Origin: Escherichia phage VerenaGrendelmeier_Bas101
Length of the DNA stretch: 64,000 nt
Reading direction: 5' to 3' (one strand)
Sequence record: PQ850631.1
Shown: positions 37,254-39,895 of the stretch, piece by piece
How positions within the stretch are numbered: position 1 is the stretch's first letter
Layout: every line of letters starts with the position of its first letter
Made by a program: the position numbers and the translations under genes
The notes under the pieces: generated by a model
The model's input: the letters and a program-made list of their open reading frames with translations, nothing else
Told to the model about the DNA's origin: nothing
Databases searched by the model: none

Positions 37254-37700
37254 TTAACGGTAATTCACTAGTTGCTGATCACCAGAGAAGGTGCAATGAT
37301 AAACGAATTGTGCGTTATAAAGCAACTGAAAACTTTTCTTTGGTTCATTATTAGAACTCATTGATGTAAAGATTTCTGCACCAGAACGGTTTTCACCAAT
37401 CAGGTTAATAAAGCCGCCAGTTGAACGAGGCTGAACGAAAGTGAAACGCTGCATCCACGGAGTCCGGTTGGCACCTTTTCCGGTGAATCCCTGAATCTGA
37501 ATATTCAGACCTTCTTGCTCGTTCACACCGATGTAAGTGGTAATTGTTGCGCCAGTCGTCGCTGCGGTCTTGCCGTCCATCGCTTCGCAATCGTAAACAG
37601 CGATTGAATCGGAAGTACGGACAGCGGCTTCAGTCGCTTCCATATACATGGTTCCGAGAATAGCAGTCGCGGCAAGCGCGATTCCAGTGATGCGTTTCAT
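37254..37700 (-). CDS. secreted protein with signal peptide, unknown function
   Basis: MKRITGIALAATAILGTMYMEATEAA signal-like N-terminus; two Cys. Confidence 0.5.
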   Translation of the reverse strand: MKRITGIALAATAILGTMYMEATEAAVRTSDSIAVYDCEAMDGKTAATTGATITTYIGVNEQEGLNIQIQGFTGKGANRTPWMQRFTFVQPRSTGGFINLIGENRSGAEIFTSMSSNNEPKKSFQLLYNAQFVYHCTFSGDQQLVNYR

Positions 37701-38761: not shown

Positions 38762-38840
38762 TTGTCCTTTGTGGGTGATATGAGAAGTATAATAGCTAAA
38801 TTATTTTACAGCAACAAGTCATTTCTATTTAGTACAGACG

Positions 38841-38868
38841 AAAAAAAGACCCACAACAAGTGTGGGTC
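38841..38868 (-). terminator. rho-independent terminator (minus strand)
   Basis: GACCCACA...TGTGGGTC stem; minus-strand transcript followed by seven U. Confidence 0.65.
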
Positions 38869-38896: not shown

Positions 38897-39742
38897 TTAT
38901 TCCGCTTGATCACCGTCTTCAGCATCGTCGTTGGATTCAACATCGACAAACTCGATGTGGCCCATCTCTTCCAGCTTGCTCAGGTAGGAGCGAACGGAAG
39001 CGCCAAACAGTTGATCTTTAACTTTCTCGCCCAGCTCATCGATAGACTGTGCCACGCCAACTTCGCCTTCTTTGATCGCAGCCAGAACGCGTCCACGGGT
39101 GGAATGCTCTTGCGGCTGGCTCAGGCCATTACCAGTGTAGATGAAGTGAGTAGCTTTTGCACGACGCTGACCGTTTGCCTTTTTAGCAGCCTTACGTTCT
39201 GCGATGGCTTTGCGACGTTCTTCAGCTTCTTTCTTACGCTGTTCTTTCTGCTGTTCTGCAGCTTCTTTCGCCGCAATCTTAGCAGCTTCACGCTCTGCCT
39301 TGCGTTTCGCTTTAGCTTCTTCTTTGGCCTTCTCTTTTTCGGCCTTCGCTGCAGCACGGGCTTGATCACGCTCTGCTTTCTTAGCAGCAGCTTGTTCAGC
39401 TTTCAGGCGCTTGGCTTCTTCTTTAGCCTTTGCCTTTTCGATTTCTTTCGCTGCTTTAGCGGCTTCACGCTCTGCTTTCTTAGCAGCGGCCTTTTCTGCA
39501 CGCTCTTTAGCTTTCTTGGCTGCTTCTTCAGCACGCTTCTGAGCCTTCTCATCAGCAGCCTGCTTGCGTTTCAGCGCAGCTTCTTCACGCTTGGCTTGTT
39601 TTTCCTGCTCACGCTTCTGGCGTTTTTCTTCGGCTTCTTTCTTTTTAGCCAGGCGTTTTTCTTCAGCCACGCGACGACGTTCTGCTGCAGCTGCTTGTTT
39701 TTCTTCTTTAGATAATACTTTGATTGCTTCGGCCATGTTCAC
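38897..39742 (-). CDS. Lys/Glu/Ala-rich protein (long predicted single alpha-helix) with small C-terminal globular domain
   Basis: About 200 aa of KEEKQAAAAERRRVAEEKRLAKKKEAEEKR-type low complexity, then an ~80-aa C-terminal domain. Confidence 0.5.
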   Translation of the reverse strand: MNMAEAIKVLSKEEKQAAAAERRRVAEEKRLAKKKEAEEKRQKREQEKQAKREEAALKRKQAADEKAQKRAEEAAKKAKERAEKAAAKKAEREAAKAAKEIEKAKAKEEAKRLKAEQAAAKKAERDQARAAAKAEKEKAKEEAKAKRKAEREAAKIAAKEAAEQQKEQRKKEAEERRKAIAERKAAKKANGQRRAKATHFIYTGNGLSQPQEHSTRGRVLAAIKEGEVGVAQSIDELGEKVKDQLFGASVRSYLSKLEEMGHIEFVDVESNDDAEDGDQAE

Positions 39743-39895
39743 AGTCCTTAAATAAATTAGTTTATTTTATATTCCCCGTTTGGGATAACTTAATTATGCC
39801 TTCAGTCGCCGCCAGTAGCAACTAAAAACTATGGCGGCGATGCCACTTTAATTAAACTGATTTTCAGTTTTATTTTTCGTAAATTTACGTCAACA

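What the first reader, a model, noticed from the sequence alone, without database searches (positions are those of the whole stretch)
38897..39742. Protein with about 200 residues of pure K/E/A/R/Q sequence and a small C-terminal domain
The first two thirds consist almost entirely of Lys, Glu, Ala, Arg and Gln in short repeats, predicting a long single alpha-helix or coiled coil; the last ~80 aa look globular. The underlying DNA carries internal direct repeats such as CGCTCTGCTTTCTTAGCAGC, so length may vary by slippage. This could be a molecular ruler or spacer, a nucleoid-associated protein, or a membrane-tethering protein; it sits between a Dda-like helicase and the flavoprotein.
Basis: seen in the sequence. 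Interest (0 to 1): 0.5.

Follow-up and report, generated by a model that had tools for sequence, protein, structure and literature searches.

The report
Phage protein: charge-striped helix plus winged helix
This is a real, strongly conserved and probably abundant phage protein of unknown function: a 26-nm single helix with a positive stripe on one side and a negative stripe on the other, joined to a small winged-helix domain, most likely binding DNA rather than being the "TolA protein" databases call it.

Summary
The window is Escherichia phage HansTraber_Bas100 (Wifcevirus, family Lindbergviridae). The ORF is real: minus strand, ATG at 39736, 279 aa.

Residues 11-195 are 94% K/E/A/R/Q. AlphaFold2 gives one unbroken helix (residues 10-186), a basic linker (RRAKATH), a winged-helix domain (197-264) and an acidic tail.

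The "low-complexity" helix is highly ordered:
- K/R follow an 11/3-residue (hendecad) periodicity, z about 14-16, with no heptad signal.
- D/E lie on the opposite face.
- The pattern and its phase relative to the C-terminal domain hold in about 25 divergent homologues.
- E. coli TolA has the same composition but lacks the pattern.

Ten Wifcevirus orthologues are all 279 aa, and pN/pS in the helix is 0.008. Slippage-driven length variation is therefore not supported.

The "TolA protein" label is a composition artefact. Codon bias matches or exceeds that of the major capsid protein. A published study detected the orthologue in CsCl-purified virions.

The family occurs only in PB1-like phages, always in the replication module downstream of the Dda-like helicase.

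Best reading, inferred and not shown: an abundant DNA-binding architectural protein. Function remains untested.

The parts
38897..39736 (-). CDS of the 279-aa protein (stop codon 38897-38899); equals Bas100_0052
   Evidence: Third-position bias of substitutions is 9/1/78. pN/pS is 0.028. Matches PHROG 4765 with E 2e-84.
39179..39709 (-). Residues 10-186: one continuous charged alpha-helix of about 26.5 nm. K/R sit in hendecad columns 0, 3, 7 and 10; D/E sit on the opposite face; Ala is spread evenly.
   Evidence: AlphaFold2 helix H10-186. K/R periodicity at 3.67 residues has z 14-16 and D/E z 8-9. 43 of 65 K/R but only 2 of 40 D/E fall in the four stripe columns.
39149..39178 (-). Residues 187-196: hinge and conserved basic arm, ANGQRRAKATH (family motif G-x-R-R-x-K/R-A-T-H)
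   Evidence: R11 and R12 of alignment A3 are invariant or nearly invariant. pLDDT dips here.
38945..39148 (-). Residues 197-264: winged-helix domain (beta-H1-beta-H2-H3-beta). Its most conserved element is helix 3, SVRSYLSKLEEMGH.
38900..38944 (-). Residues 265-279: disordered acidic tail; the last residue is Glu
   Evidence: Net charge -8. pLDDT below 50. pN/pS 0.22. The terminal residue is Glu in 16 of 28 homologues.
39745..39749 (-). Shine-Dalgarno AAGGA, 8 nt upstream of the ATG
   Evidence: Sequence read. Annotated as a ribosome-binding site in phage Mansfield.
39793..39821 (-). Promoter-like site TTGCTA-17-CATAAT, a consensus match only
   Evidence: It lies in a 159-nt intergenic region that is 99% identical across 9 Wifceviruses.
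39806..39840 (-). Inverted repeat TCGCCGCCA-N17-TGGCGGCGA. One pair varies C-G / T.G / T-A among relatives.
38838..38868 (-). Intrinsic terminator directly after the gene (8-bp stem, then T7)
   Evidence: Annotated as a terminator in WFC, WFH and Mansfield.
39369..39487 (+).

Best explanation
Shown by computation. The gene encodes a cytoplasmic protein conserved across the PB1-like phages (Lindbergviridae). It has three parts:
- A 177-residue uninterrupted alpha-helix whose charges are sorted with hendecad (11/3) periodicity. A nearly straight Lys/Arg stripe runs down one face, a Glu/Asp stripe runs down the opposite face, and alanine fills the rest.
- A short hinge with a conserved basic arm (G-x-RR-x-K-A-T-H).
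- A winged-helix domain followed by an acidic tail that usually ends in Glu.

The helix is neither a canonical coiled coil nor unconstrained low complexity. Within the genus its sequence and length are almost frozen. Between genera the composition, the periodicity and the phase relative to the C-terminal domain are kept. Codon usage, its own ribosome-binding site and terminator, and its detection by mass spectrometry point to high expression.

Inferred, not shown. The protein is an abundant DNA-associated architectural protein made with the replication genes.
- The winged helix and the basic arm anchor it on DNA.
- The 26-nm positive stripe (about 43 positive charges) lies against or bridges DNA or another polyanion.
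- The negative face and acidic tail point outward and keep the complexes soluble, or regulate binding.
- Its presence in CsCl-purified virions would then be carry-over or co-packaging with DNA.
For: Structure:
- AlphaFold2 predicts helix 10-186 and the winged helix 197-264.

Charge pattern:
- K/R periodicity at 3.67 residues has z 14-16 in Bas100 and up to 28 in homologues. It is the best period in about 25 of 30 homologues, with no 3.5 signal.
- The K/R and D/E faces are 178 degrees apart.
- The stripe phase relative to the RRxKATH motif is conserved in 27 homologues (resultant 0.81).
- E. coli TolA domain II has the same composition but no such periodicity.

Constraint: pN/pS is 0.008 in the helix against a pS of 0.12, and 10 of 10 orthologues are 279 aa.

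Conserved basic residues cluster at the arm, at the start of H1 and on H3: R191, R192, R214, R249 and K254.

Expression:
- 25 of 25 Arg codons are CGY and 9 of 10 Leu codons are CTG. This equals or exceeds the major capsid gene.
- The gene has its own Shine-Dalgarno and terminator.
- The orthologue vB_Eco4M-7 gp83 gave 7 peptides and a score of 1197 in CsCl-purified virions. ECML-117 gp81 was also detected (PMC7048862).
- LBL3 ORF66 is annotated as a structural protein.

Context:
- The gene always lies in the replication/nucleotide module downstream of the Dda-like helicase, in 9 contexts.
- No SSB or histone-like protein is annotated in the genome.

Weak similarity of the C-terminal domain to the nucleoid protein YejK/NA37: Pfam E 0.0055 in 3 of 26 members, and hhalign probability 49%.
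Against: - No DNA binding has been measured for any family member.
- Net charge of the helix varies from -3 to +26 among homologues. A simple polycation model therefore fails.
- No 22-24-residue periodicity matching the DNA helical repeat was found.
- The virion proteomics also picked up other replication-module proteins, so contamination is possible.
- The YejK similarity is below threshold, and the YejK C-domain is described as all-helical with no known structural relatives (PMC11229321).
- Oligomeric state could not be modelled.
Confidence: 0.4

Rival explanations
1. Protein-protein adaptor of the replication machinery. The winged helix and the acidic tail bind partner proteins, as the RPA32 C-terminal winged helix or SSB tails do. 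A candidate partner is the neighbouring Dda-like helicase or the polymerase. The long helix acts as a rigid arm or electrostatic landing strip, and DNA is not the primary ligand.
For: - The winged helix is acidic.
- The tail usually ends in Glu (16 of 28), reminiscent of a recognised C-terminal tip.
- The gene is constantly placed in the replication module after the SF1 helicase.
- No SSB is annotated.
Against: - The helicase is not always immediately adjacent: 1 to 5 small genes intervene in L020 and in the P0012 contig.
- The tail is the least constrained part (pN/pS 0.22) and differs in length and sequence between genera.
- Conserved basic residues on the arm, H1 and H3 fit nucleic-acid binding better.
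- Capsid-like codon bias suggests stoichiometric rather than catalytic amounts.
Confidence: 0.2
2. A genuine virion component: an internal head protein packaged with the genome, and possibly ejected into the cell, encoded outside the structural module.
For: - The protein was detected in CsCl-purified virions of two Wifceviruses. In vB_Eco4M-7 its score (1197) is higher than that of the portal protein (PMC7048862).
- LBL3 ORF66 and several relatives are annotated 'putative structural protein'.
- Trypsin would cut the K/R-rich helix into very short peptides, so 7 peptides implies abundance (inference).
Against: - The same preparations contained a helicase, a glyoxalase-family protein and a reductase.
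- The main texts of the cryo-EM atlases of the Pbunaviruses E217 and Pa193 do not mention this protein in the passages searched, and the Pa193 scaffold is gp24.
- The gene lies in the replication-gene cluster on the strand opposite the structural genes.
- The original LBL3 proteomics paper could not be read.
Confidence: 0.15
3. A sequence-specific winged-helix transcription regulator, for example of its own promoter or of middle/late genes, with the helix as an oligomerisation or spacing device.
For: - Helix 3 has the classic recognition-helix signature (xVRSYLSKLEExGhI) and is the most conserved segment.
- The upstream intergenic region is 99% conserved. It contains an inverted repeat overlapping a promoter-like site.
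- No other transcription factor is annotated.
Against: - Capsid-like codon bias and abundance do not fit a regulator.
- The inverted repeat varies C-G / T.G / T-A, which suggests an RNA hairpin rather than a protein operator.
- No common inverted repeat was found upstream in the other genera.
- A face-to-face symmetric dimer through a K/R face is electrostatically implausible (inference).
Confidence: 0.08
4. The first reader's ruler or spacer whose length is tuned by repeat slippage.
For: - Helix length differs between genera, from roughly 100 to 185 residues in full-length homologues.
- DNA repeats are spaced in multiples of 33 nt.
Against: - There is no length variation within Wifcevirus (10 of 10 are 279 aa; 28 records span 1198-1201 nt) or between two Pbunaviruses.
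- pN/pS is 0.008 in the helix.
- There is no conserved module at the N-terminal end to be spaced from the winged helix.
- The tape measure is assigned to another gene in Pa193.
Confidence: 0.05
5. A TolA homologue or mimic, or a membrane-tethering protein, as many GenBank records name it.
For: - Without composition correction, BLASTP to E. coli TolA gives E 1e-32 and 48% identity.
- The composition is similar to TolA domain II.
Against: - The BLASTP hit disappears with composition-based statistics and SEG.
- No Pfam or NCBIfam TolA model matches.
- There is no N-terminal transmembrane anchor or signal peptide.
- The C-terminal domain is a winged helix, not TolA domain III.
- TolA lacks the 3.67 periodicity.
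- The helix has no hydrophobic face.
Confidence: 0.02

Closest known systems
Charged single alpha-helix (ER/K-type SAH) domains, e.g. in myosin VI/X and caldesmon (own knowledge)
   Same: A very long, highly charged helix with almost no bulky hydrophobic residues and no heptad seam. It is predicted as one continuous helix. Opposite-charge i+3/i+4 pairs are modestly enriched (z 2.3) and same-charge pairs are depleted (z -2.7).
   Different: Charges are not arranged in alternating E4/K4-type blocks around the helix. They are sorted onto two opposite faces with strict 11/3 periodicity. The helix is 31% Ala. It is attached to only one globular domain, so it does not act as a spacer between two.
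TolA domain II (Tol-Pal system)
   Same: A K/E/A-rich, long helical region of similar composition. This is the source of the 'TolA protein' label in many phage records.
   Different: - No transmembrane anchor and no TolA C-terminal domain.
- No model hit.
- The similarity vanishes under composition correction, and TolA has no 3.67 periodicity.

It is not a member.
Bacterial nucleoid proteins built as an N-terminal helical region, a linker and a C-terminal DNA-binding domain (H-NS, MvaT, Lsr2; Rok, which has a winged-helix C-terminal domain). Also the plasmid protein KfrA (winged helix plus a long alanine-rich helical tail). Own knowledge.
   Same: The overall architecture: a long helical part, a basic linker and a small DNA-binding-type fold. 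The protein is abundant and encoded by a mobile element.
   Different: - No sequence relationship was detected.
- The helix here lacks a hydrophobic oligomerisation seam.
- The domain order is reversed relative to KfrA.
- The acidic tail has no counterpart.
- DNA binding is untested.
YejK / NA37 nucleoid-associated protein (PF04245; PDB 9be2)
   Same: Weak local similarity covers 39 columns (H1-beta-H2 of the C-terminal domain against YejK 213-251). It lies just upstream of the YejK helix carrying the DNA-binding residues R276, R280 and K284.
   Different: All scores are below curated thresholds, and hhalign probability is only 49%. The YejK C-domain is described as all-helical, within a two-domain clamp. 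This is a lead only.
11-residue-repeat amphipathic helices (apolipoproteins, alpha-synuclein, group 3 LEA proteins) and right-handed hendecad coiled coils (own knowledge)
   Same: The same 11/3 periodicity, which gives nearly straight stripes along the helix. The composition is rich in Ala, Lys and Glu, like LEA 11-mers.
   Different: The positions that would form a hydrophobic face or core are occupied by Lys/Arg. No Pfam LEA, apolipoprotein or synuclein model matches. There is no hydrophobic face for lipid binding.
Linker histone H1/H5 (own knowledge)
   Same: A winged-helix globular domain joined to a long Lys/Ala-rich extension, in an abundant DNA-associated protein.
   Different: H1 tails are Pro-containing, disordered polycations without acidic residues. 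Here the extension is a structured helix with an equally ordered acidic face, and its net charge varies from -3 to +26 among homologues.

Membership tests
PHROG 4765 (phage protein family of unknown function) | Full-length match to the family profile | tested here: met
   E 2.4e-84, residues 1-279 against profile positions 14-271 of 294.
TolA (Tol-Pal) | N-terminal transmembrane anchor (domain I) | tested here: not met
   The N-terminus MAEAIKVLSKEEK is not a hydrophobic stretch, and residues 11-195 hold only 7 bulky hydrophobic residues (hendecad layout).
TolA (Tol-Pal) | C-terminal TolA domain III, or a match to TolA family models | tested here: not met
   No Pfam family at E up to 1. No NCBIfam TolA model. 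The C-terminal domain folds as a winged helix.
TolA (Tol-Pal) | Sequence similarity that survives composition correction | tested here: not met
   BLASTP against E. coli TolA gives no hit with composition-based statistics and SEG, and E 1e-32 without them.
Winged helix-turn-helix fold | H1-strand-H2-turn-H3-strand topology with a small antiparallel sheet | tested here: met
Winged helix-turn-helix fold | DNA binding through helix 3 and the wing | not testable with these tools
   Only conserved basic residues (R191, R192, R214, R249, K254) can be pointed to.
Canonical (heptad) coiled coil | 3.5-residue periodicity of hydrophobic residues | tested here: not met
   At period 3.5, z is -0.9 to 0.1 for Ala, for hydrophobic residues and for charges. 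The same holds in homologues.
ER/K charged single alpha-helix | High E/K/R content, no hydrophobic seam, enrichment of i to i+3/i+4 opposite-charge pairs | tested here: inconclusive
   Composition and lack of a seam are met. Opposite-charge pairs have z 2.3 and same-charge pairs z -2.7. The dominant charge period is 3.67, not the 6-9 residues typical of block patterns. Monomeric state was not testable.
NA37 / YejK nucleoid-associated protein (PF04245) | Match to the family model above the curated threshold | tested here: inconclusive
   3 of 26 C-terminal domains hit NA37, best E 0.0055, below gathering. PDB 9be2 gives E 0.35. hhalign gives 49% probability over 39 columns.
Phage scaffolding protein | Encoded in the head module; identified as the scaffold in related virions | tested here: not met
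   The gene lies in the replication module on the opposite strand. In the Pbunavirus Pa193 the scaffold-like density was assigned to gp24, whereas this family is gp84.
Anti-phage defence or counter-defence families (PADLOC) | Match to any model | tested here: not met
   0 families at E up to 1.

The most novel reading that the evidence does not exclude
The family is a previously unrecognised kind of viral chromatin protein. A 'Janus' helix, with a straight basic stripe backed by an acidic stripe, coats or aligns phage DNA. It does so in register with a winged-helix anchor, and it is co-packaged with the genome into the capsid. This would give the PB1-like phages, including the therapeutic Pbunaviruses, their own DNA-organising protein with a binding mode unlike HU, H-NS, histones or protamines.
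Probability: 0.2. Interest if true: 0.7.

Novelty: new variant of a known kind. Interest (0 to 1): 0.45.

Why it matters
- The protein is conserved across the Lindbergviridae genera examined. This family includes the Pbunaviruses widely used in phage therapy and the very fast-replicating Wifceviruses. The protein appears highly expressed, yet it is annotated as hypothetical, 'TolA protein' or 'structural protein'.
- Showing that the TolA name is a composition artefact removes a misleading label from hundreds of records.
- The finding that an apparently low-complexity K/E/A/R region is in fact a precisely phased hendecad helix under near-absolute purifying selection gives concrete, cheap experiments: DNA binding, stripe charge-reversal mutants and localisation.
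- If the DNA-architectural reading is right, this would be a new structural solution for organising viral DNA. It could also help explain why these phages lack a recognisable SSB or histone-like gene.

Tried and rejected
- **Database searches with nothing significant.** Pfam, NCBIfam and PADLOC scans of the full protein and the C-terminal domain found nothing. A sequence search of the PDB with the C-terminal domain found nothing, and the profile search gave only E of 0.35 or worse.
- **Limited homologue recovery.** Word-indexed homology search returned only 4 and 8 proteins. The exhaustive HMMER search gave 27 cluster representatives.
- **Fold searches.** The afdb50 library was unavailable. 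BFVD returned only family members. The full-length model against the PDB gave no match with E below 0.3.
- **TolA homology rejected**.
- **Heptad coiled coil rejected**.
- **Slippage rejected.** Tandem-repeat slippage and length polymorphism are not seen within genera.
- **No DNA-repeat periodicity.** K/R show no periodicity at 22-24 or 33 residues in 25 homologues.
- **No shared operator.** No common inverted repeat was found upstream of the gene across genera.
- **YejK link inconclusive.** Profile-profile probability is 49%, and the YejK C-domain is described as all-helical.
- **Scaffold role rejected.** The Pa193 scaffold is gp24.
- **Literature gaps.** The original PB1-like proteomics paper (J Bacteriol 2009) could not be read. 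The Pa193 supplementary tables are not held. No paper in the library discusses this gene's function.
Full report
**Identity of the window and the gene.** The 1.2-kb region around the finding is 99.9% identical to Escherichia phage HansTraber_Bas100. It is 95.7-98.7% identical to 27 other Wifcevirus records. Wifcevirus belongs to the recently created family Lindbergviridae, the PB1-like myoviruses (PMC12451628).

The ORF listed at 38897..39742 on the minus strand starts at a GTG. An ATG two codons downstream (39736) is preceded by AAGGA at the right distance. Every annotated GenBank orthologue examined uses that 840-nt CDS.

The protein is Bas100_0052, 279 aa, annotated 'hypothetical protein'. 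Other records call it 'TolA protein' or 'putative structural protein'.

**Check of the observation.** Residues 11-195 are 31% Ala, 24% Lys, 21% Glu, 12% Arg and 6% Gln, or 94% in total. There is no Pro, and net charge is +27. The last 84 residues have ordinary composition and end in an acidic tail.

Further imperfect repeats are spaced 33, 96, 99 and 102 nt apart. Tandem Repeats Finder sees only a trivial 15-nt doublet.

The reading frame is secure. Among ten orthologues, variable sites fall 9/1/78 on codon positions 1/2/3, and pN/pS is 0.028. Peptides of the orthologue were found by mass spectrometry. The long plus-strand ORF 38906..39715 is a mirror artefact.

**Structure.** AlphaFold2 was run on an alignment of family members. 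It gives one unbroken helix from residue 10 to 186 (pLDDT up to 98), then a lower-confidence linker. A compact domain follows, with topology strand-H1-strand-H2-H3-strand, and then a disordered tail.

Helix 3 (SVRSYLSKLEEMGH) is the most conserved element. Conserved basic residues sit in the arm (R191, R192), at the start of H1 (R214) and on H3 (R249, K254). No solved structure or BFVD model outside the family shares the whole architecture.

**The helix is not low-complexity noise.** Fourier analysis shows that Lys/Arg recur with a period of 3.67 residues (11/3, a hendecad), with z about 14-16 against shuffles. Asp/Glu do the same with z 8-9, and there is no signal at the heptad period 3.5.

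Written in rows of eleven, the register holds without a stutter for all 177 residues. K/R fill columns 0, 3, 7 and 10: 43 of 65, against 23.6 expected. Only 2 of 40 acidic residues fall in those columns.

The mean directions of the basic and acidic residues are 178 degrees apart, and Ala is spread evenly. The helix is thus two-faced: a nearly straight basic stripe backed by an acidic stripe. It is 26.5 nm long, and on a 3.6-residue helix the stripe turns roughly once over that length.

The same K/R period (3.63-3.70) is the strongest one in about 25 of 30 homologues, with z up to 28, although their helices are hardly alignable. The phase of the stripe measured from the conserved RRxKATH motif is conserved in 27 homologues (resultant 0.81). 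Shared ancestry, and growth by 11- or 33-residue duplications, contribute to this.

E. coli TolA domain II served as a composition-matched control and shows no 3.67 periodicity (z -0.3). I found no conserved longer periodicity at 22-24 or 33 residues.

**Evolutionary constraint and the slippage idea.** Ten Wifcevirus orthologues are all 279 aa. The helix has two amino-acid changes in total against 12% synonymous divergence.
- Helix: pN/pS 0.008.
- Winged helix: pN/pS 0.038.
- Tail: pN/pS 0.22.

All 28 genus records span 1198-1201 nt for the 1201-nt query. Two Pbunavirus orthologues differ only in the annotated start. Length does differ between genera. Repeat-number variation by slippage is therefore not seen on the timescale sampled, and the helix is the most constrained part of the protein.

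**Distribution and context.** An exhaustive HMMER search of 1.84 billion representative proteins with the C-terminal domain finds only 27 clusters. In every full-length member the domain is C-terminal, behind a charged helix.

tblastn finds the domain in 356 phage records. These are Pbunavirus, Wifcevirus, Bcepfunavirus, Myosmarvirus and Carpasinavirus, plus Pantoea and Aeromonas phages. BFVD adds Tabernariusvirus.

In nine genomic contexts the gene lies in the replication/nucleotide module, downstream of the SF1 Dda/RecD-like helicase. It is either adjacent to the helicase or separated from it by one to five small genes. In eight of the nine it is directly followed by a protein of about 315-333 aa with no Pfam hit, and then, after a few other genes, by ThyX. 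It has its own Shine-Dalgarno and a strong intrinsic terminator.

**Expression.** All 25 Arg codons are CGT or CGC, and 9 of 10 Leu codons are CTG. This equals or exceeds the bias of the major capsid gene and is well above the neighbouring replication genes.

In a published study, CsCl-purified virions of vB_Eco4M-7 contained the orthologue gp83 ('TolA protein'). It gave 7 peptides, 25.8% coverage and a score of 1197, above the portal protein. ECML-117 virions contained gp81 (PMC7048862). Because trypsin would shred the K/R-rich helix, that coverage essentially means the C-terminal third (inference).

The same preparations also contained a helicase, a glyoxalase-family protein and a reductase. 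A Pbunavirus study likewise found replication proteins in particles. True packaging therefore cannot be separated from carry-over. The LBL3 orthologue is annotated as a structural protein, but I could not read the original paper.

**What it is not.**
- TolA: no transmembrane anchor and no TolA domain III. No Pfam or NCBIfam match was found. The BLASTP hit to E. coli TolA (E 1e-32 uncorrected) disappears with composition-based statistics.
- Heptad coiled coil: rejected by the periodicity data.
- Head scaffold: in Pa193 that density was assigned to gp24, whereas this family is gp84.
- Known defence or counter-defence family: no match.

**Most likely function.** I favour an abundant DNA-associated architectural protein, with confidence about 0.4.
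- The shown steps are the structure, the charge geometry, the constraint, the context and the signs of abundance.
- The inferred steps are that the winged helix and basic arm bind DNA, and that the basic stripe contacts DNA or another polyanion.
- Also inferred: the acidic face and tail point outward, and virion detection reflects association with DNA.

A weak and inconclusive similarity of the C-terminal domain to the nucleoid protein YejK points the same way. NA37 gives E 0.0055 in 3 of 26 members, PDB 9be2 gives E 0.35, and hhalign gives 49% probability. The matched segment lies just before the YejK helix whose R276/R280/K284 are needed for DNA binding (PMC11229321).

Several points count against this reading:
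- The winged helix is acidic overall.
- Many of its structural neighbours bind proteins or RNA rather than DNA.
- Helix net charge ranges from -3 to +26 among homologues.
- No binding data exist.

Rival readings are a replisome adaptor (0.2), a true internal virion protein (0.15), a sequence-specific regulator (0.08), a length-variable ruler (0.05) and a TolA-like tether (0.02).

**Novelty and verdict.** The family is already catalogued (PHROG 4765), but it is uncharacterised and often mislabelled. A winged helix attached to a long charged helix resembles known nucleoid-protein and KfrA-type layouts. I know of no precedent for a strictly hendecad-phased, two-faced charge pattern under near-absolute purifying selection, and the literature I could search describes none.

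I rate it a new variant of a known kind, of moderate interest (0.45). The interest would rise if DNA coating or co-packaging were shown.

Noticed in passing
window 39737-39895 (minus strand), especially 39806-39840: The 159-nt intergenic region upstream of the gene is 99% identical in 9 Wifceviruses, whereas synonymous sites in the CDS differ by 12%. One pair of its 9-bp inverted repeat (17-nt loop) varies C-G / T.G / T-A among phages. This looks like covariation in an RNA hairpin, and it overlaps a promoter-like TTGCTA-17-CATAAT.
   Followed up: partly
homologues P0008, P0009, P0010, P0012, P0015, P0024, P0006 (N-termini): Distant family members begin with His-rich segments (e.g. MSHGHHHHTQDAGHTHG) ahead of the charged helix. 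Bas100 lacks this. It may be a metal-binding site.
   Followed up: no
window 38900-38944 (residues 265-279) and the C-termini of homologues: The acidic tail varies in length and sequence, but the last residue is Glu in 16 of 28 homologues, often as ...AE. This hints at a recognised C-terminal tip.
   Followed up: partly
A gene of similar size (315-333 aa) directly follows the target gene in 8 of 9 genomic contexts. The phage Mansfield record calls it UDP-galactopyranose mutase on the basis of HHpred.
   Followed up: partly
whole Bas100 record (L008, L022): No single-stranded DNA-binding protein, histone-like protein or transcription factor is annotated among the 111 features. The phage nonetheless encodes a polymerase, three helicases, two primases and a ligase.
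   Followed up: no
window, whole length: The 9-mer TCGCCGCCA, allowing one mismatch, occurs 44 times against 14.4 +/- 4.4 in shuffles. Many of the copies before about 25 kb are on the minus strand. The cause was not examined and may be a codon effect.
   Followed up: no
window 37254-37700 (minus strand): A 148-aa ORF inside the nucleotide-metabolism cluster has a signal-peptide-like N-terminus (MKRITGIALAATAILGTMY...) and no Pfam hit.
   Followed up: no
window 38906-39715 (plus strand): A 269-aa F/L/S/C-rich ORF lies antisense to the gene. It is a mirror artefact of the biased codon content and not a gene, because substitutions follow the minus-strand frame.
   Followed up: yes
published proteomics of vB_Eco4M-7 and ECML-117 (PMC7048862): Several other replication-module proteins were found in CsCl-purified virions with good scores: a glyoxalase-family protein, 31-kDa and 21-kDa unknowns, and a 3-oxoacyl reductase. 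Either these preparations carry over abundant early proteins, or Wifceviruses package non-structural proteins.
   Followed up: no
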